Of a stretch of DNA of 64,000 nt, positions 25,026 through 33,031 are shown one piece after another. The translations under genes were made by a program, and so were the position numbers. This stretch comes from Bacteroidota bacterium. Its GTDB lineage: Bacteria > Bacteroidota > Bacteroidia > M30B66. The stretch lies in assembly GCA_027483445.1 (NCBI GenBank), contig JAIXUS010000078.1, positions 24,792 to 88,791 of the forward strand, given 5' to 3'. Each line of letters opens with the position of its first letter. Position 1 is the first letter of the stretch. The notes under the pieces are model-generated. The model worked only from the letters and a program-made list of their open reading frames with translations, did no database searches and was not told where the DNA came from.

Positions 25026-25424
25026 CTACGCTTCTTGAATTCGGGCAATGTAGGCTTTTAAAACCGGAATATCGGCAGGAGCCCACCTGAGGTTCTCCAG
25101 CAGTATTTGAGGGTCTCCGCTGATGGCCATATCGTGGTCGGCACCCGGCGGTGGCAGTTGTTTCACTTTGGCCAGGAAAACGTGAAGTTTAACCCATGTT
25201 TGGGGGTATTCAAAAGGAAATACACCCAGATACTGGGTAATTTCAGGTTGTATCGATAACTCTTCCGCCAACTCTCTTTCCAGTGCCTTTAGTGGATCTT
25301 CGCCATCTTCCAGTTTTCCTCCCGGAAACTCCCAATGCTCCTCCAAAGCACGACCAGGCGCACGTCGGTAGGCACAGATTTCAACACCCAGCTGAAGGAT
25401 AGCGCAGGAAACCTCAATTTCCAT
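25026..25424 (-). CDS. MutT-like Nudix hydrolase ((d)NTP pyrophosphohydrolase)
   Basis: [26 protein letters not shown] Nudix box; WAPADIP. Confidence 0.88.
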
Positions 25425-27537
25425 CGCGGTAAGCCTCCAACAGAATTCCTAAAATCTCTGAAGCCGCGAGTGGTATGCTGGTGCCTGGACCAAAAACCAA
25501 GGCAACGCCCGACTCATACAATTGGGTGTAGTCTTGTTGTGGAATCACGCCTCCGGCCACAACAATAATGTCATCCCGCCCAGCGGCCTTAAGCTCTTCT
25601 ATAACTTTAGGAATGAGAGTTTTATGTCCACCGGCTAACGACGAAACGCCGAGCACGTGTACATCGTTTTCCAGAGCCTGCCTGGCCACTTCGGCCGGCG
25701 TTTGAAAAAGAGGGCCAATATCGACATCAAATCCGATGTCGGCAAAACCGGTGCTGATCACCTTAGCTCCGCGGTCGTGACCGTCTTGTCCCATTTTAGC
25801 CACCAAAATGCGTGGTCTTCTCCCTGCCAAATGGGCAAAATCATCGGCCATCAAACGGGCTTTTTCAAGGGCTTCGTTGTTTTTCACTTCGCCCGAATAT
25901 ACACCACGAATGCTTTTAATACTGGCCTGATACCTTCCAAATTCTTCTTCTAATGCCATTGAAATTTCGCCAAGAGTGGCTCTTTCCCTCGCAGCATCAA
26001 TGCTGAGTGCCATAAGGTTGCCTTGACCACTTTTTGCGGCTTCACGAAGTTTTTGTAAACACAGCTCAACCTTTTCAGCGTTACGCTCGCGTTTAATCTT
26101 TGTCAGGCGTTCAATTTGTTCGGCTCGTACACGTGTATTATCAACTTCCAGAATTTCAAGGGGTTCCTGAGTGTCAACCTGAAATCTGTTTAATCCAACA
26201 ATTACCTCTGTTCCGGCGTCAATTCGGGCCTGCTTCCTTGCGGCGGCCTCTTCGATACGCATCTTAGGAATGCCTGTTTCTATCGCTTTGGCCATCCCGC
26301 CAAGGGCTTCAACCTCTTCAATGAGCGCCCAGGCCTTATCGGCCAGCTCATGGGTTAAATATTCAACATAAGCGCTTCCGCCCCAAGGATCTATGGCCCG
26401 TGTAACTCCACTTTCCTGTTGAATAAACAATTGCGTGTTTCTGGCAATGCGCGCCGAAGCATCGGTGGGCAAAGCAATGGCTTCATCAAGCGCGTTGGTA
26501 TGCAAACTTTGTGTGCCTCCGAGCACAGCCGCCATGGCCTCAACCGTGGTGCGCGCTACGTTGTTATAAGGGTCTTGCTCCGTTAAGCTCCAGCCGCTCG
26601 TTTGGCAGTGTGTTCTGAGCGATAACGACTTCGAATTTTTCGGATTAAAGCGTTTGAGCATGCGCGCCCAAAGCATCCGTCCCGCGCGCATCTTGGCAAT
26701 TTCCATACAATGATTCATGCCAATTCCCCAGAAAAATGAAAGGCGGGGTGCGAATTCATCAATGCTCAAGCCCGCCGCCATTCCAGTTCGCACATACTCT
26801 AACCCATCGCACAAGGTGTAAGCCAGCTCTATGTCTGCTGTAGCGCCAGCTTCGTGCATGTGGTAGCCACTGATACTAATGCTGTTAAATTTTGGCATGT
26901 GCCTCGAGGTGTAGGCAAAAATATCGGCAATGATGCGCATCGATGGCCCGGGCGGATAGATATACGTGTTGCGCACCATGAACTCTTTCAAAATATCGTT
27001 CTGGATGGTTCCGCTCAGCTGTTCAGGCTTCACACCTTGCTCCTCAGCAGCCACAACGAAAAAGGCCATCACCGGTAATACCGCGCCGTTCATCGTCATA
27101 GAAACACTCATCTCGTGGAGAGGAATCTGATCGAATAAGATCTTCATATCCTCCACAGAATCAATAGCTACGCCGGCTTTACCAACGTCACCTTCCACGC
27201 GTTCATGGTCAGAATCATAGCCCCGGTGCGTAGCCAAATCAAAAGCAACGGATAAACCCTTCTGTCCGGCCGCTAAATTGCGTCTGTAAAAGGCATTGCT
27301 TTCAGCCGCAGTACTGAAGCCTGCGTATTGACGTATTGTCCATGGCCTGCTTACGTACATGCTCGAGTAAGGGCCCCGCAAAAAAGGCGCAATTCCCGGG
27401 TAATGGGTGGTGGGGTTTTCGCCTTTGGCCGGATAAGCCGAACCTACTTCAATATCTTCCGGGGACTTCCAAGAACGTTGGCCTTCAAATCGTTCAGGAG
27501 TTTTGGGGATGGCAATTCGGGTAAAGTAGGGCTTCAT
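25414..27537 (-). CDS. scpA: Methylmalonyl-CoA mutase, catalytic (large) subunit
   Basis: [34 protein letters not shown]12-binding [11 protein letters not shown]. Confidence 0.97.
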
Positions 27538-29366
27538 GCGTTGGGGCTGAGGGGTGAATATTGTTCCAGAAACGGAGCGAAAACAGATTCGACATTGCAG
27601 CCAATAAAGATAAATTGTTGAATGCCCAGGGCTTTAAGCCTTGGCTCATCGGCGGGTTTTCCGGCAACCCAAACCGGTGCATCGGGACGGGCCTTAGGGA
27701 AGAGCTCCTCGACCAGAGGCAAGTAATCATCATCGCCGGCGCACAATACGATAAGGCCTGCGTTTAGGGCGTCTCGGCTTTGTAGCTGGTCTTCTGGATT
27801 CACATTCCGGTTGCCCCTTACCGAAACGATGCCAGCCAAGGCGAGGAAATCTGCCGCAAAACCTGCTCGTGCAGCGCTTTTTGAGGCTTCGCCGAAGCAA
27901 ACCAAAAAGGCTTTCTTTCCAAAGTGACGATGTAGATGTCTTCTCAGCCGCTCGAAAGCCTCGGCCTCGCGCCAGGGCTCTAACTGCTTCACTTCCGGTA
28001 TTTTACTCAAAGGGTCGCGGGTCTGCGGCAAGGCTTCCGGTAAATTTTTATGTGCCTCGGCGAAAACCGAAGTGCCAACAATCGGACGTTTTCGGCTCAT
28101 CACCATTTTGCGAAGCTCTCCCGCCGATTTTCGGATTTCCTCCTGCATAAATCCGGTTCTTACCGCACTGAAAAATCCACCAAGCTCCTGCACACGGCAG
28201 AACAAAGCCCACGATTGCTCTACAAGTTGCCTAGTGAGGCCATCGATGTACCATGAGCCGGAAGCCGGGTCTAAAACCTTGTCGAGCCTACTTTCTTCCT
28301 GCAATAAATGTTGGATGTTTAATGCCAGACGCCTTGAGTTAGCCGTATTCTGGGCATACAAAACATCATGAGGAAGCACGAAAAGGCGATCCACACCGGC
28401 CATTACGGCGGCCATTGACTCGGTGGTGGCTCGAATCAGGTTGGTGTAGGGATCGGCAATGGTTTTATTCCTTAACGTTGTTATGGCTTCTATTTCCAAA
28501 GGAAGCTTTGTTGCATCGAGCTTGTATGCCTCAAGCAGCATGGCCCACAAAAGACGCATTGCCCTGAATTTTGCCAATTGCAGAAAGTAATCGGAACCGA
28601 TACTCAAGCGAATTTGGGCGGCTTCCAGCACAGCTTCCGGATTTTCACCCCGATACAGATTTTCGGCATATTCGGCGAATGCTGCAAGACTGAAAGCGAG
28701 TTCTTGTACCACCGACGCTCCGCTTTCTGCATAGATGCGCGCATCGTGAACTACAAATTTGAACCGGGGCAAGGCCGCTTTTCCCTGATCAATCATTGAG
28801 TTGAGTACAGAGAAATCGGTATGCTGGTCGTGGAAAAATGCGCCGGTTCGAAGCAGCTGACCGGGAATGTCGAAAGTGACCGATCCTGTAAGTAAATCAC
28901 GCTTCAGCGGGCGACGTGCGAACTCATCAGCAAGCATGAACAGCAAGGCCGGCGAGCCTTCTCCACAATCGAAATGCAACGATACAGCTTCGGGAAGCAC
29001 TCCCCGCAGGGTAAGAATCAATTCCTCCTGGTTGCTAATGCCAATGCCCTCAAAGCAAAGCGCAGAAGCTCCCTGTTCAAGGTGTTGCAAGGCCGATTTG
29101 TTGGCCACAAGAAGGTCATCGGTGGCTAGAATTACGCCCTTTTCCCAATCGTTAGCAAAGGCAAACTCAGGGTGATGTGGCCTGCGCAAGTGCCCCACAA
29201 AAAGCGATTCACTGTTTGCTTCTGAAGAACCTAGATTTTGAACTTCAAGCGACTCAACGCGCGAACTGAGGATTTTACTCAGGTCGTCGGTCTTGAGATC
29301 CTTTTTTAATTGTTCAAGCCAAAGCGTATAGTTAGCCTGAGGAAAATCGGTATTTAGCTTTTCCAC
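27534..29366 (-). CDS. mutA: Methylmalonyl-CoA mutase small (non-catalytic) subunit
   Basis: [40 protein letters not shown]; lacks the DxHxxG cobalamin motif. GTG start. Confidence 0.88.
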
Positions 29367-29410: not shown

Positions 29411-29740
29411 TCAGTTTTCTGATGCGGTAGTGTCTACCAAAGTCCAGATTTCCTCTCCCTCCTTCTTCATGAAGTAATTTTCTCTCGCGTATTGTTCAAG
29501 GGTTTGTTCACTGGTGTTGATGGCTTCCAGCTTTTCGCGGGTGTTTTTGATTTGCTCCTGATAATACTTCCGTTGTTTGCGCAACTCAGTGAGCTCTTTT
29601 CTTTCGGTGTACTGAAGTACAAGGTTATTGCCGTCTAAGAAAAGCAGCCAAATCAGAAAGCCGAAAAAGGTGAGAAAATACTTGTTTCCCAGTAGCGGAT
29701 ATCGCTCGGTGAGTTGAGTAAATGCAGCCTTGAGCTTCAT
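29411..29740 (-). CDS. FtsB/DivIC septum formation initiator family protein
   Basis: Single TM helix, coiled coil, LEQYARENYFMKKEGE. Confidence 0.85.
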   Translation of the reverse strand: MKLKAAFTQLTERYPLLGNKYFLTFFGFLIWLLFLDGNNLVLQYTERKELTELRKQRKYYQEQIKNTREKLEAINTSEQTLEQYARENYFMKKEGEEIWTLVDTTASEN

Positions 29741-29808
29741 GGAACAAAAATAGGAGGAGTCGTTGTCTTAAGAAATCGTCCTTTCAAAAGTTCTGAGCAT
29801 TGTGGTGT

Positions 29809-30282
29809 TTATTCAATCGAGAGCTTGCCAATCAGTTTCGGGAAATTCCCGGGATAGGTGCTAATGTAATTGAATGAACCCGAGGCCGGAGTGGTAAACT
29901 CAACCGATACACTGCTTCCGGAAGCGGCCAGCTCGGTGGCGGCAATTACATTTCTACCCGAGGGCACGTAATTGTTGTTCGACCCGGCGGCAATCGCGTC
30001 ATTCACCACTTCCTGACCAGTTCCCATATTCACCAACACCCAGTTCTGATAAATGTCGGTACTTTTCATCGCATTATTCAGGGTGAGCTTTACCTTCGAC
30101 TGCGCCGGAAGTGTAAGTCGGGCAGGCTCAAAGCGCATATCCGACATGCCCGACCCCAATACTTTAACCTCTACCTGATAAACGCCATTGGCATCTTTTT
30201 GCCATGTTTTATCACTCCCGCCGCAGGCAATCGCAAGGATTAACAGCGTAAAGAGTGGAATAATTCGTAAACGTTGCTGCAT
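29809..30282 (-). CDS. Azurin/auracyanin-like cupredoxin-fold lipoprotein lacking type-1 Cu ligands
   Basis: Lipobox LAIA-C; MRFEPARLTLPAQSKVKLTL, QNWVLV, SVEFTTP, YISTYPGNFPKLIGKL follow the azurin scaffold. Confidence 0.8.
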   Translation of the reverse strand: MQQRLRIIPLFTLLILAIACGGSDKTWQKDANGVYQVEVKVLGSGMSDMRFEPARLTLPAQSKVKLTLNNAMKSTDIYQNWVLVNMGTGQEVVNDAIAAGSNNNYVPSGRNVIAATELAASGSSVSVEFTTPASGSFNYISTYPGNFPKLIGKLSIE

Positions 30283-30593
30283 GGTTGTATAATCTGTTGC
30301 AATATCTGATAAAATATGATTGCTCAAATCTACATTTTAGAATTGATTTGAAATGTAATCTATCCTATACTGAATCAGTCATTTGAATCGATGTTTCCCT
30401 GTTTTAACACAGTATTTATTGCCATAAACCTAGCCCGTTGTTGTCCTCATTCCTTACAATAGATTCCATAAGGTCATCAACAATTACCTTTAGAATTGGC
30501 CTAAACCTGTAAACCGGGTTGCCTCACATTCAATTTTTTCTCACTTTTAGCCATCCCTTTCGCTACAAAAGGCATCCGCCAAATCAAACTAAT

Positions 30594-32492
30594 ATGTACA
30601 CTCACCGAATTCGATCTTCTGAGGACTACTACTCGGCTATAACGCAAAGTCGGGAAAATCCCGAAGCATTCTGGGCCGCCGTGGCCTCTAACCTTCATTG
30701 GCAAAAGCCCTGGGAGAAGGTTCTCAATTGGAATTTCGACCCTTACGCTGTGCATTGGTTCGAGGGCGGAAAGTTGAATATTACCGAGAGTTGCCTCGAC
30801 CGCCACCTGGCCGAACGCGGCAATCACACCGCCCTGTTATTTGAGCCCAACGACCCGAAAGACAGAGCCCGCCGCATCAGCTACAACGAGCTGTTTATGG
30901 AAGTGTGCCGATTTGCCAACGTGCTCAAACGCAATGGAGTGCGAAAAGGCGACCGCGTTTGCATTTACATGCCTATGATTCCCGCCTTGGCTGTGGCCAC
31001 CTTGGCCTGTGCCCGAATTGGGGCCATCCACTCGGTGGTCTTTGCCGGCTTCTCTGCCCAATCGATGGCCGACCGCATCAACGACGCCGGCTGCATTGTA
31101 GTGGTTACCGCCGATGGCATGAGCCGCGGTGCCAAGCAGTTGCCGCTCAAACGAACCGTCGACGAAGCCCTCGAGCATTGCGACACCGTTTCGCGCGTAA
31201 TCGTTTACAATCACTTGGATTGGCAACCCGAAATGCTCGATGGTCGCGATGTTTATTGGCACAACGAACTCGAACATGTCGACAGTCACTGCCCGGCCGA
31301 ATCCATGGATTCAGAAGACCCGCTATTTATTCTCTACACCTCAGGCTCTACCGGCAAACCCAAAGGCGTAGTGCATACCACCGGCGGCTACGCAACTTAC
31401 GTCGACTACAGCTTCCGCAACGTGTTTCAAGTAGAGCCCAACGATGTTTACTGGTGTACTGCCGATATCGGCTGGATTACCGGTCACAGCTACTTACTCT
31501 ACGGTCCGCTCATGTCGGGCATCACCAGCCTTATGTTCGAAGGCATTCCCACATGGCCCGATGCCGGCCGCTTCTGGTCGGTCATCGACAAGCATGGCGT
31601 AACCGTATTTTACACCGCGCCAACCGCCATTCGTTCGCTGATGGCTGCCGGCATTGATCACGTTTTGCCCTACAACCTTCATTCACTCAGAGTTTTAGGT
31701 TCGGTAGGAGAGCCCATCAACGAAGAGGCCTGGCATTGGTACCACGTGCATGTGGGCAAAGAAAGATGCCCGGTAGTCGACACCTGGTGGCAAACCGAAA
31801 CCGGCGGCATCATGATTTCTGCCCTGGCCGGCGTAACGCCCTCTAAACCAGCCCATGCGGGTTTGCCCTTGCCGGGTATTCAAACCGTGTTGCTCAATCA
31901 GGAAGGAAAAGAAATTGAAGGCAACGACCAGGAAGGCTACTTGGCGGTCAAATTCCCTTGGCCGTCGATGATTCGCACCACCTGGGGCGACCATGAGCGC
32001 TGCTATCAGACTTATTTTACGGCCTACAAGGGGTATTACTTTACCGGCGATGGCGCAAGGCGCGATGAACAGGGTATGTACCGCATTATTGGCCGTGTTG
32101 ATGATGTAATTAATGTATCAGGCCACCGCTTCGGAACGGCCGAAATTGAAAATGCCATTAACCTGAATAAATCGGTAGTCGAAAGTGCCGTTGTGGGTTA
32201 CCCGCACGACATTAAAGGTCAGGGCATTTACGCCTTTGTGATTTGCGAAAAATTACCGGAGCACCCCGAATATCTGCGCGAAGAGATTTACGAAACGGTG
32301 AGCACCGCCATCGGTCGTATTGCCAAGCCCGATAAAATTCAGTTTGTTTCCGGCTTGCCCAAAACGCGCTCAGGAAAAATCATGCGCCGAATTTTACGCA
32401 AAGTAGCCGAGGGCGATTTGAGCAACCTCGGCGATACCACCACCTTACTCGACCCGCTGATTGTGGATGAGATTGTGGAGGGGAAAGTGTAA
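30594..32492 (+). CDS. acs: Acetyl-CoA synthetase (AMP-forming)
   Basis: YTSGSTGKPKG, DTWWQTETGG, GDGARRD, LPKTRSGKIMRRILRK. Confidence 0.97.
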   Translation: MYTHRIRSSEDYYSAITQSRENPEAFWAAVASNLHWQKPWEKVLNWNFDPYAVHWFEGGKLNITESCLDRHLAERGNHTALLFEPNDPKDRARRISYNELFMEVCRFANVLKRNGVRKGDRVCIYMPMIPALAVATLACARIGAIHSVVFAGFSAQSMADRINDAGCIVVVTADGMSRGAKQLPLKRTVDEALEHCDTVSRVIVYNHLDWQPEMLDGRDVYWHNELEHVDSHCPAESMDSEDPLFILYTSGSTGKPKGVVHTTGGYATYVDYSFRNVFQVEPNDVYWCTADIGWITGHSYLLYGPLMSGITSLMFEGIPTWPDAGRFWSVIDKHGVTVFYTAPTAIRSLMAAGIDHVLPYNLHSLRVLGSVGEPINEEAWHWYHVHVGKERCPVVDTWWQTETGGIMISALAGVTPSKPAHAGLPLPGIQTVLLNQEGKEIEGNDQEGYLAVKFPWPSMIRTTWGDHERCYQTYFTAYKGYYFTGDGARRDEQGMYRIIGRVDDVINVSGHRFGTAEIENAINLNKSVVESAVVGYPHDIKGQGIYAFVICEKLPEHPEYLREEIYETVSTAIGRIAKPDKIQFVSGLPKTRSGKIMRRILRKVAEGDLSNLGDTTTLLDPLIVDEIVEGKV

Positions 32493-32503: not shown

Positions 32504-33031
32504 ATGAACATTCGGCAAATGTTGGTGCTGACATCCATTTTGGGATTGTCGCTTATGGTTTTAGGCCAGAAAGCCCTGCCACGGCCGTTTTACCGGAACC
32601 AGATTGCATTGCAGTTGGGGTTTGGTCAGACCAGCGCACCCGGTGTAGTGTTTCCGTTTTCCTCGGGTTTTGGCGCTTATGTGCGCCGTGATCGGCATGC
32701 TTTAGGATTTCGCCAGGATTACCACACGGAGCTGGAAATTTTCAAGGAGGCCACCTTTTACCGCTTTAGGTCGGTGTACTATGGAAATGCCTGGGTGCTC
32801 AAAAACACGGTGTTGATGCCGCAATTGGGAATTGGCAGCTTTAAATCGAATTTTCCTACCGGGCAGAACCGGGAATATTCCGGACTGGCCGCTGAAATTG
32901 GCATTGAAGGTTCGTGGCTGAACCGTGGTAATGGAATTGGCGCCCGGGTGTTTTTCAATTGGAATAAGCCACAGCCTTATGTTGGCTTGCACATAATGCT
33001 CAATCTCGGTTACAGTTGGATGAAGCAATAA
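32504..33031 (+). CDS. Hypothetical protein, probable outer-membrane beta-barrel
   Basis: Signal peptide, then alternating hydrophobic/Gly strands with an aromatic C-terminus. Confidence 0.55.
   Translation: MNIRQMLVLTSILGLSLMVLGQKALPRPFYRNQIALQLGFGQTSAPGVVFPFSSGFGAYVRRDRHALGFRQDYHTELEIFKEATFYRFRSVYYGNAWVLKNTVLMPQLGIGSFKSNFPTGQNREYSGLAAEIGIEGSWLNRGNGIGARVFFNWNKPQPYVGLHIMLNLGYSWMKQ

What the first reader, a model, noticed from the sequence alone, without database searches (positions are those of the whole stretch)
29809..30282. Azurin-fold lipoprotein with all four type-1 copper ligands substituted
Seen (checked in DNA): where azurin/auracyanin has GHNW and C-T-F-P-G-H-x-x-x-M, this protein reads YQNW and S-T-Y-P-G-N-F-P-K-L, i.e. 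His to Gln, Cys to Ser, His to Asn, Met to Leu. The scaffold, lipobox and frame are intact. Known: His-Cys-His(-Met) is required for blue-copper binding. Four clean, mostly isosteric swaps suggest selection rather than decay. Inference: a metal-free or alternative-ligand cupredoxin with a new binding or structural role.
Basis: partly seen in the sequence, partly recalled or inferred. Interest (0 to 1): 0.7.

Follow-up and report, generated by a model that had tools for sequence, protein, structure and literature searches.

The report
Copper-free azurin-family lipoprotein, conserved clade
A freshwater Bacteroidota bacterium carries a membrane-tethered relative of the blue-copper electron carriers azurin and auracyanin that has lost every copper-holding residue, yet is conserved, expressed and selected, so it probably now works by binding a partner.

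Summary
The minus-strand gene 29809-30282 encodes a 157-aa lipoprotein. It is homologous to auracyanin A (E 4e-16) and folds as a cupredoxin (pLDDT 86.5; Foldseek TM about 0.8). The four type-1 copper ligands read Gln79, Ser141, Asn146 and Leu150, and the mature chain has no His or Cys.

This is not a one-off decay.
- 25 protein clusters, including 7 species-level Bacteroidota MAGs, share [Q/E]-S-[N/S/T]-[M/L/V/K].
- They form one clade (support 100) on the longest inner branch of the tree.
- dN/dS is 0.02-0.06.

The sister group is strictly His-Cys-His-Met (72/72). It occupies the same chromosomal slot (dnaX / cupredoxin / DivIC-FtsB / mutA / mutB), so the clade consists of positional orthologues of a normal blue-copper lipoprotein. 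One canonical orthologue sits beside COX3-COX4-Sco1. A lake metatranscriptome holds fragments of this gene and none of its neighbours.

Most likely this is a redox-inert cupredoxin whose former copper pocket is filled by polar side chains. It keeps the old docking loop and acts by protein binding; the partner is unknown.

Caveats:
- All four swaps are single-nucleotide steps.
- Most of the clade keeps the axial Met.
- Whole-genome searches were shut, so I could not check for oxidases or paralogues.

I rate it a new variant of a known kind (FtsP/SufI and plant ENODLs are copper-less precedents).

The parts
29809..30282 (-). Gene for the 157-aa copper-ligand-free auracyanin/azurin-family lipoprotein (P0001)
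   Evidence: ORF and translation. PF00127 hit. Auracyanin A at E 4e-16. AF2 pLDDT 86.5. Foldseek top hits are auracyanins and azurins.
30223..30282 (-). Signal peptide with lipobox (MQQRLRIIPLFTLLILAIA-C20). Cys20 is the predicted lipid-attachment site.
   Evidence: Read directly from the sequence. The Cys is invariant in the clade and in the canonical orthologues.
30040..30051 (-). Y78-Q79-N80-W81: the first ligand motif. Gln79 replaces the upstream His ligand, and Tyr78 is a clade-specific fixed residue.
   Evidence: Alignment to auracyanin A. Y78 is 14/14 in the clade against Leu in 49/59 canonical orthologues. Q79 codon CAG against CAY in canonical orthologues.
29833..29862 (-). Former copper-binding loop S141-T-Y-P-G-N146-F-P-K-L150. 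Ser replaces Cys, Asn replaces His, Leu replaces Met.
   Evidence: The canonical orthologues read C-T-Y-P-G-H-F-P-K-M. S141, T142, P144, G145, P148 and K149 are invariant in the clade.
30325..30332 (-). TAGATTTG, a match to the Bacteroidota -7 promoter consensus TAnnTTTG, 43 nt upstream of the ATG
   Evidence: Read. The consensus comes from my own knowledge of Bacteroidota promoters and is not a tested function. The sigma-70 scan found nothing on this strand.
29411..29740 (-). Downstream neighbour: a 109-aa DivIC/FtsB-type septum-formation initiator, 68 nt after the stop. The adjacency is conserved.
   Evidence: PF04977 scores 30.4 bits against a cut-off of 28.9. The pair is conserved in L001-L007, L014, L016-L019 and L024; in L015 the gene in that slot is a 77-aa ORF with no Pfam hit.
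25414..29366 (-). Context genes mutA (27534-29366) and mutB (25414-27537), the methylmalonyl-CoA mutase subunits. They are part of the conserved synteny block.
   Evidence: PF01642 and PF02310. Synteny.
29764..30179 (-). Span covered by two 151-nt metatranscriptome contigs (29764-29914 and 30029-30179) at 99% identity or better
   Evidence: run X8, freshwater metatranscriptome. No other fragment of this organism lies in the surrounding 20 kb.

Best explanation
The gene encodes a lipid-anchored periplasmic cupredoxin. It is the positional orthologue of a normal type-1 blue-copper lipoprotein of Bacteroidota (auracyanin-like, probably an electron donor to an aa3-type cytochrome oxidase). One freshwater Bacteroidota lineage lost the copper site once and has kept the protein ever since.

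Shown:
- The fold, the lipobox and the loss of both His ligands and the Cys.
- A single origin of the loss.
- Long-term purifying selection.
- Conserved synteny with copper-bearing orthologues.
- Transcript fragments in a lake metatranscriptome.

Inferred:
- The protein binds no copper and carries no electrons.
- The polar replacements Gln/Glu79, Ser141 and Asn/Ser/Thr146, together with the newly fixed Tyr78, fill and hydrogen-bond the empty metal pocket. The 'northern' loop (S-T-[YF]-P-G-x-[FY]-P-K) therefore keeps the shape it had around copper.
- That loop and the surrounding hydrophobic face were the docking and electron-exit surface of the ancestor. They are still the most conserved part, so the protein most likely works by docking to a partner as a non-redox subunit, scaffold or regulator.
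- It sits on a tether that is 9-20 residues shorter than in the canonical orthologues.

The partner is not identified. The candidates are the respiratory complexes served by the ancestor and the divisome protein FtsB/DivIC encoded next door.
For: - Homology and fold.
- Ligand replacement.
- No His or Cys beyond residue 25 (after the lipobox Cys20).
- The clade has 25 clusters at 90% identity, all lacking the ligands and with no intermediates. It includes 7 species-representative genomes.
- Monophyly is supported at SH-aLRT 99 and 100. The stem branch is 0.82, the longest inner branch, against a median of 0.07.
- dN/dS is 0.064 (window vs L014), 0.024 (L001 vs L002) and 0.051 (L005 vs L006).
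- Ser141 is encoded by AGC or AGT and Gln79 by CAG or CAA, so both residues are kept across synonymous change.
- All 72 complete sequences recovered with the sister protein P0014 are H-C-H-M.
- L015, L018 and L019 lie in the identical gene order OmpA / Methyltransf_30 / DUF4920 / x / dnaX(divergent) / cupredoxin / DivIC / mutA / mutB, as do L001-L007.
- The canonical orthologue in L023 lies directly upstream of COX3 / COX4_pro / SCO1-SenC / DUF420.
- The loop flanks are nearly identical between the groups (YNYICTYPGHFPKMIGKLVVE against YNYISTFPGNFPKMIGKLVVE).
- Residues invariant in canonical orthologues around the site (M46, M49, N72, M77) are relaxed in the clade. New residues are fixed instead (Y78, R50, K60, V93, N94, N103, G109).
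- The ex-ligand positions vary (Q/E; N/S/T; M/L/V/K), including a Lys at the axial position in P0237. This fits packing rather than a metal site.
- Two RNA contigs lie inside the gene and none in the other 19.5 kb.
Against: - No metal content was measured, and the model coordinates could not be inspected. The hydrogen-bonded pocket is therefore inference from the known azurin geometry.
- No partner is identified.
- The adjacency to DivIC predates the copper loss and is absent in more distant canonical relatives, so it may be plain synteny.
- The link to cytochrome oxidase rests on one locus.
- The RNA evidence is two short contigs from one run, and DNA carry-over cannot be excluded.
- Conservation of the loop could reflect folding constraints alone.
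- Whole-genome searches were shut. I could not test whether these genomes still have the oxidase, ACIII or a second, copper-bearing cupredoxin.
Confidence: 0.7

Rival explanations
1. The protein has become a divisome-associated periplasmic lipoprotein that works with the FtsB/DivIC protein encoded 68 nt downstream. This would be a single-domain analogue of E. coli FtsP/SufI, a cupredoxin-fold protein without copper that localises to the septal ring.
For: The cupredoxin-DivIC pair persists even where both outer flanks differ. The window has acs upstream instead of dnaX. L016/L017 have GCV_T upstream and LNS2 downstream. L024 has PS decarboxylase upstream. FtsP is a documented precedent for a copper-less cupredoxin fold in cell division (PMC2661564).
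Against: Copper-bearing orthologues have the same adjacency, so the adjacency does not explain the loss. The intergenic gaps are 68-223 nt with no translational coupling. RNA fragments cover the cupredoxin gene but not ftsB. More distant relatives lack the pair.
Confidence: 0.1
2. The remodelled pocket (Gln/Glu O, Ser O, Asn O, Met S, backbone carbonyl) still binds something: a harder metal ion, a type-2-like copper, or a small molecule. The protein would then be an alternative-ligand cupredoxin rather than an empty one.
For: The replacements are all polar and potentially coordinating. Ser141 is invariant in 25 clusters and Met150 is retained in most. Engineered azurins with Cys112Asp, and an iron(II)-loaded azurin, still bind metal (PDB titles 1ag0, 3fq1 and 4hz1 listed).
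Against: Both His ligands are gone, and no natural or engineered cupredoxin site I know of binds metal without them (my own knowledge). The ex-ligand positions vary within the clade (Q/E, N/S/T, M/L/V), and P0237 places a Lys at the axial position. That fits poorly with a defined cation site. The mature chain has no His or Cys.
Confidence: 0.1
3. A decaying relic: the gene lost its function with the copper site and is simply not yet deleted.
For: The defining cofactor site is lost. The stem branch is very long.
Against: dN/dS is 0.02-0.06. The frame is intact in 25 clusters and 7 species genomes whose synonymous sites are saturated. Thirty-seven positions are invariant in the clade. Transcript fragments are present.
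Confidence: 0.03

Closest known systems
Auracyanin A and B of Chloroflexus and Roseiflexus (PDB 2aan, 1qhq/1ov8, 6kol)
   Same: Best sequence match (E 4e-16) and best structural match (TM about 0.8). Same loop spacing, Cys+5 = His and His+4 = Met. Auracyanin A is also a lipoprotein with an N-terminal tether (the lipidation of auracyanin A is from my own knowledge).
   Different: Auracyanins carry His-Cys-His-Met, bind type-1 copper and shuttle electrons from alternative complex III. Here the ligands are Gln-Ser-Asn-Leu, and no His or Cys exists in the mature chain.
Canonical Bacteroidota 'azurin / plastocyanin-azurin family' lipoproteins (P0014, P0160-P0217; loci L015, L018, L023, L024)
   Same: Positional orthologues with the same gene neighbourhood. 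They are 40-50% identical, with a nearly identical C-terminal loop and lipobox.
   Different: They keep H-C-H-M in 72/72 sequences. They have invariant Met46, Met49 and Met77 around the site and a tether 9-20 aa longer.
FtsP/SufI of E. coli
   Same: A periplasmic cupredoxin-fold protein that lacks almost all copper ligands and binds no metal. It acts through protein-protein contacts (PMC2661564). The present gene also sits next to a divisome gene.
   Different: FtsP is a three-domain multicopper-oxidase homologue exported by Tat and is not lipidated. It has no sequence relationship to the azurin/auracyanin subfamily beyond the fold.
Plant early nodulin-like proteins (ENODLs, phytocyanin family)
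   Same: Single cupredoxin domain, lipid-anchored to a membrane (GPI). They lack the residues needed for copper binding and are retained as a large functional family (PMC10048054).
   Different: They are eukaryotic, glycosylated and belong to the phytocyanin subfamily. The loss is independent and the partners are different.
Subunit II (CyoA) of cytochrome bo3 quinol oxidase
   Same: A membrane-anchored cupredoxin domain that lost its copper (CuA) ligands but remains an essential structural part of a respiratory complex (my own knowledge, not tested here). It is a model for the 'non-redox subunit' reading.
   Different: It belongs to the CuA rather than the type-1 lineage and is an integral oxidase subunit with transmembrane helices.

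Membership tests
Cupredoxin fold, azurin/auracyanin subfamily (Pfam PF00127 Copper-bind) | Significant sequence match to the family model and to solved members | tested here: met
   PF00127 scores 27.9 bits against a gathering score of 21.2. Auracyanin A at E 4.2e-16, with 106 PDB sequences at E<=1.
Cupredoxin fold, azurin/auracyanin subfamily (Pfam PF00127 Copper-bind) | Eight-stranded Greek-key beta-sandwich with the azurin-type helix insert | tested here: met
   AF2 model with pLDDT 86.5, showing strands plus helix 89-98. The Foldseek top 50 hits are all auracyanins or azurins, with target TM 0.72-0.84.
Type-1 (blue) copper protein | His-Cys-His trigonal ligand set, with an axial Met, Gln or Leu | tested here: not met
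   Q79, S141, N146 and L150. No His or Cys beyond residue 25, i.e. after the lipobox Cys20.
Type-1 (blue) copper protein | Binds one Cu with an intense band near 600 nm and transfers electrons | not testable with these tools
   Needs purified protein, UV-vis, EPR and ICP-MS.
Azurin proper (NCBIfam TIGR02695 equivalog) | Score above the equivalog cut-off | tested here: not met
   46.1 bits against a cut-off of 105.1. The canonical sister P0014 also fails, at 47.2 bits.
Lipid-anchored cupredoxins (auracyanin A, Neisseria Laz type) | Signal peptide ending in a lipobox Cys, followed by a flexible tether | tested here: met
   L-A-I-A-C20 follows a charged n-region and a hydrophobic core. The Cys is invariant in clade and sister group. 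Lipidation itself was not tested.
Copper-less cupredoxin-fold proteins (FtsP/SufI, ENODL, CyoA type) | Cupredoxin fold retained, copper ligands lost, gene kept under selection | tested here: met
   Fold. Ligand loss. dN/dS 0.02-0.06. Clade of 25 clusters.
FtsP/SufI family | Three-domain multicopper-oxidase architecture, Tat signal, septal-ring localisation | tested here: not met
   Single domain of 157 aa with a Sec/lipoprotein signal. Localisation is not testable here.

The most novel reading that the evidence does not exclude
A natural, ancient 'apo by design' azurin-family protein whose former copper pocket and docking face have been re-used for a new job. One possibility is a lipid-anchored, non-redox subunit or regulator of the respiratory supercomplex or of the divisome (a Bacteroidota counterpart of FtsP, partnered with the adjacent FtsB). 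Another is a binder of a new ligand in the Gln/Glu-Ser-Asn pocket. As far as my literature searches reach, this would be the first copper-free member of the single-domain bacterial azurin/auracyanin family to be given a function.
Probability: 0.15. Interest if true: 0.7.

Novelty: new variant of a known kind. Interest (0 to 1): 0.5.

Why it matters
Blue-copper proteins are the textbook case of a fold built around a metal. Here nature provides matched orthologue pairs in the same chromosomal slot whose metal loops differ in essentially five residues (L>Y, H>Q, C>S, Y>F, H>N). One set is copper-bearing and the other is not, and both have been kept by selection for a very long time.

That gives a clean system for two questions. 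How is a cupredoxin stabilised without its metal? What second, non-redox function can an electron carrier have? The result may also bear on how freshwater Bacteroidota rewired respiration or their copper use.

On the practical side, automatic annotation calls these proteins 'azurin' or 'copper-binding protein'. That label is very probably wrong for this clade and for several other independent ligand-loss lineages.

Tried and rejected
- **Whole-genome search.** I tried to search the window's own genome and its relatives for other cupredoxins, oxidases, ACIII and Sco. The genome search was shut, so this key test could not be run.
- **Local tblastn.** I searched COX3, COX4, Sco1, DUF420 and the cupredoxin of L023 against the window and loci L001-L007 and L014. 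Only the cupredoxin itself matched.
- **Earlier findings of this scan.** Searches by place, genome and sequence gave nothing relevant.
- **Sigma-70 promoter and intrinsic terminator scan.** No site on the gene's strand and no terminator between the gene and ftsB.
- **Longer TTG-initiated ORF (172 aa, start 30327).** Rejected. All homologues start near the ATG, and the extension overlaps the -7 motif.
- **L013 (Saprospiraceae).** This is a spurious pattern match full of stop codons.
- **Met-rich Cu(I) site (M46, M49, M72, M86).** Rejected, because these positions are not conserved in the clade.
- **Surface-export (LES) signal after the lipobox.** There is only one acidic residue (C-G-G-S-D/E), so there is no support for surface exposure. 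This rests on my own knowledge of the motif and was not tested.
- **Literature.** Four searches for copper-less azurin or auracyanin homologues in bacteria found none described. They returned only FtsP, and a fifth search returned the plant ENODLs, as analogues. The library is incomplete, so absence is not proof.

Full report
**1. What is there**

The minus strand between 30282 (ATG) and 29809 (end of TAA) carries an intact 157-codon ORF. Its product begins with a lipoprotein signal, MQQRLRIIPLFTLLILAIA-C20. A short Gly/Ser tether follows, then a domain that matches Pfam PF00127 above threshold (27.9 bits against 21.2). Among solved structures the best match is auracyanin A of Chloroflexus (2aan, E 4.2e-16), then auracyanin B and the azurins.

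An AlphaFold2 model built on 18 sequences is confident (mean pLDDT 86.5, pTM 0.78). Its 50 best Foldseek matches in the PDB are all auracyanins or azurins, with target-normalised TM 0.72-0.84. The fold assignment is therefore solid.

**2. The copper ligands**

The HMMER alignments place the four ligand positions without gaps.

| Ligand position | Auracyanin A | This protein | Codon |
|---|---|---|---|
| Upstream His | QQHNW | Y78-Q79-N-W | CAG |
| Cys | ICTVPGH | S141 | AGC |
| Downstream His | (loop His) | N146 | AAT |
| Axial Met | (loop Met) | L150 | CTG |

The loop spacing (Cys+5 = His, His+4 = Met) is the azurin spacing. Beyond residue 25, that is after the lipobox Cys20, the protein contains no His and no Cys at all.

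**3. Not a one-off**

- A word-seeded search found seven close relatives with the same pattern.
- A scan of one genome per species found seven Bacteroidota MAGs carrying it. Several isolate names look like lake or reservoir sample codes (L001-L007).
- A final profile search raised the count to 25 clusters at 90% identity.

Every member reads [Q/E]-S-[N/S/T]-[M/L/V/K]. None has a His or Cys at a ligand position, and no intermediate state was found.

An exhaustive HMMER pass over 1.84 billion 50%-identity representatives listed only one further representative of the clade (P0010). Everything after it in the list is a canonical copper protein or a separate ligand-loss lineage. The clade is therefore narrow.

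In trees it is monophyletic, with SH-aLRT 99 and 100. It sits on a stem of 0.82 substitutions per site, the longest inner branch of that tree (median 0.07).

**4. Selection**

Nei-Gojobori dN/dS on the mature part gives these values for the three pairs whose synonymous sites are not saturated:

| Pair | dN/dS |
|---|---|
| window vs L014 | 0.064 |
| L001 vs L002 | 0.024 |
| L005 vs L006 | 0.051 |

Between sub-clades dS is saturated while the proteins stay 46-60% identical. Thirty-seven positions are invariant. Ser141 is encoded by AGC or AGT, and Gln79 by CAG or CAA. The residues, not just the bases, are being kept. Decay is excluded.

**5. Where it came from**

The sister group was found by searching with the canonical sister protein P0014. 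It is strictly His-Cys-His-Met in all 72 complete sequences.

Three of its loci (L015, L018, L019) show the gene order OmpA-like / Methyltransf_30 / DUF4920 / small ORF / dnaX (divergent) / cupredoxin / DivIC / mutA / mutB / NUDIX. This is the order seen around the copper-free genes in L001-L007. In the window and in L014 the downstream part (DivIC, mutA, mutB) is the same, while the window has acs upstream.

The copper-free proteins are therefore positional orthologues of an ordinary blue-copper lipoprotein, not a diverged paralogue.

Around the site the two groups are almost identical. The sequences are GMLHNWVLVNL ... YNYICTYPGHFPKMIGKLVVE against GMYQNWVLVNL ... YNYISTFPGNFPKMIGKLVVE. All four ligand changes are single-nucleotide steps: CAY>CAR, TGY>AGY, CAT>AAT, ATG>CTG. 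The 'clean isosteric swaps' are thus also the mutationally nearest ones.

One canonical orthologue (L023) lies directly upstream of COX3, COX4_pro, SCO1/SenC and DUF420. This is the only direct hint of the ancestral job, which would be electron donation to an aa3-type oxidase. More distant canonical relatives have unrelated neighbours.

**6. What else changed**

I compared 14 clade members with 59 canonical orthologues.

- Residues invariant in the copper proteins and lying around the site by homology to azurin are relaxed in the clade. These are Met46 and Met49 (the azurin Met13 region), Asn72 and Met77.
- New residues are fixed only in the clade: Tyr78, Arg50, Lys60, Val93, Asn94, Asn103 and Gly109. 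Asn85 is also invariant in the clade, though 6 of the 59 canonical orthologues carry it too.
- The tether after the lipobox is 9-20 residues shorter.

A burst of change on the stem followed by strong constraint is the signature of a change of function, not of loss of function.

**7. Expression**

All of the listed public runs that hold this sequence at all are freshwater, lake or subsurface metagenomes. One rRNA-depleted freshwater metatranscriptome (X8) contains two 151-nt contigs at 99% identity or better, at 29764-29914 and 30029-30179. It contains nothing genuine from the other 19.5 kb laid; the third record is a 32-nt match from another organism's acs.

This evidence is weak: two fragments from one run, with DNA carry-over possible. 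It is consistent with the gene being the best-expressed one in its neighbourhood and transcribed separately from ftsB-mutAB. A match to the Bacteroidota -7 promoter motif (TAGATTTG, 30332-30325) lies 43 nt before the ATG (the motif is from my own knowledge). No terminator is predicted between the gene and ftsB.

**8. Most likely mechanism**

It is shown that the protein cannot form a type-1 site. The following is inferred.

- It is metal-free. The ex-ligand positions vary in a way that suits hydrogen-bonded packing (Q/E; N/S/T; M/L/V), and one member even has Lys at the axial position. A defined cation site would not tolerate that.
- The invariant Ser141, Asn80 and the new Tyr78 probably satisfy the hydrogen bonds that the Cys thiolate and the metal used to organise. 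This keeps the northern loop in shape.
- That loop (S-T-[YF]-P-G-x-[FY]-P-K) is as conserved in the clade as in the copper proteins. In azurins it is the docking and electron-exit face (established knowledge of the family).

The best reading is therefore a redox-inert, lipid-anchored docking protein. The partner is unknown. Two candidates exist:
- the respiratory complexes that the ancestor served;
- the FtsB/DivIC protein next door, whose adjacency survives changes of both outer flanks but predates the copper loss.

**9. Comparison with what is known**

Copper-less cupredoxin folds are known. E. coli FtsP/SufI is multicopper-oxidase-like, keeps 2 of 12 ligands, shows no metal in the crystal and localises to the septal ring (PMC2661564). 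[quoted passage not shown] CyoA of quinol oxidases is a further case (my own knowledge).

Four literature searches found no description of a copper-free member of the bacterial single-domain azurin/auracyanin family. A survey of azurin distribution that includes Bacteroidetes auracyanins does not address ligand loss in the passages retrieved (PMC8779525). Public annotations call clade members 'azurin' or 'cupredoxin-like copper-binding protein'.

I file this as a new variant of a known kind. It is a member of the fold and of the homologous family, but not of the functional class 'type-1 copper protein'.

**10. Limits**

- The genome search and the fetch from genomes were shut for the whole session. 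I could not check whether the window's genome or the other clade genomes keep an aa3 oxidase, ACIII, Sco1 or a second, copper-bearing cupredoxin. That census is the most informative missing computation.
- Trees were built with the quick method on short alignments (133-171 columns).

Noticed in passing
Proteins P0047, P0084, P0104, P0158, P0096, P0109 (representatives): The auracyanin-like family contains other, independent lineages that lost copper ligands: F-S-F-M, F-S-Y-L, Q-S-H-M, Y-S-D-M, R-C-Y-M and H-F-H-M. The tree needs 7 changes to explain them. Among the full-length lineages that lost the Cys, it became Ser in all but one (Phe in P0109). P0047 has a Tat-like RRRF lipoprotein signal, so it probably comes from another phylum.
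   Followed up: partly
L023:4001-6982: A canonical H-C-H-M orthologue lies between divergent dnaX and COX3 / COX4_pro / SCO1-SenC / DUF420. This links this orthologue group to aa3-type cytochrome oxidase and its copper chaperone.
   Followed up: partly
Protein P0237 (clade member): The axial ligand position is Lys (Q-S-N-K). This is a positive charge where the copper-bearing relatives have Met.
   Followed up: no
window 29741-29808 and the equivalent gaps in L001-L024: The spacer between the cupredoxin gene and the DivIC/FtsB gene is 68-83 nt in copper-free loci. It is 83-223 nt in canonical loci. No terminator is predicted in the window's spacer.
   Followed up: no
window 32504-33031 (+): A 175-aa ORF with an N-terminal signal-like segment and no Pfam match, lying just after acs. 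It may be a small exported or outer-membrane protein.
   Followed up: no
window 30519-32492 (+): Acetyl-CoA synthetase is listed from a TTG at 30519. The Pfam ACAS_N domain begins about 13 residues after the ATG at 30591, so the ATG is the more likely start. That leaves a divergent intergenic region of about 300 nt shared with the cupredoxin gene.
   Followed up: no
L013:7998-8285: The Saprospiraceae locus returned by the pattern scan matches only the IYQNWVLIN word, in a frame full of stop codons. It is a chance match, not a relative.
   Followed up: yes
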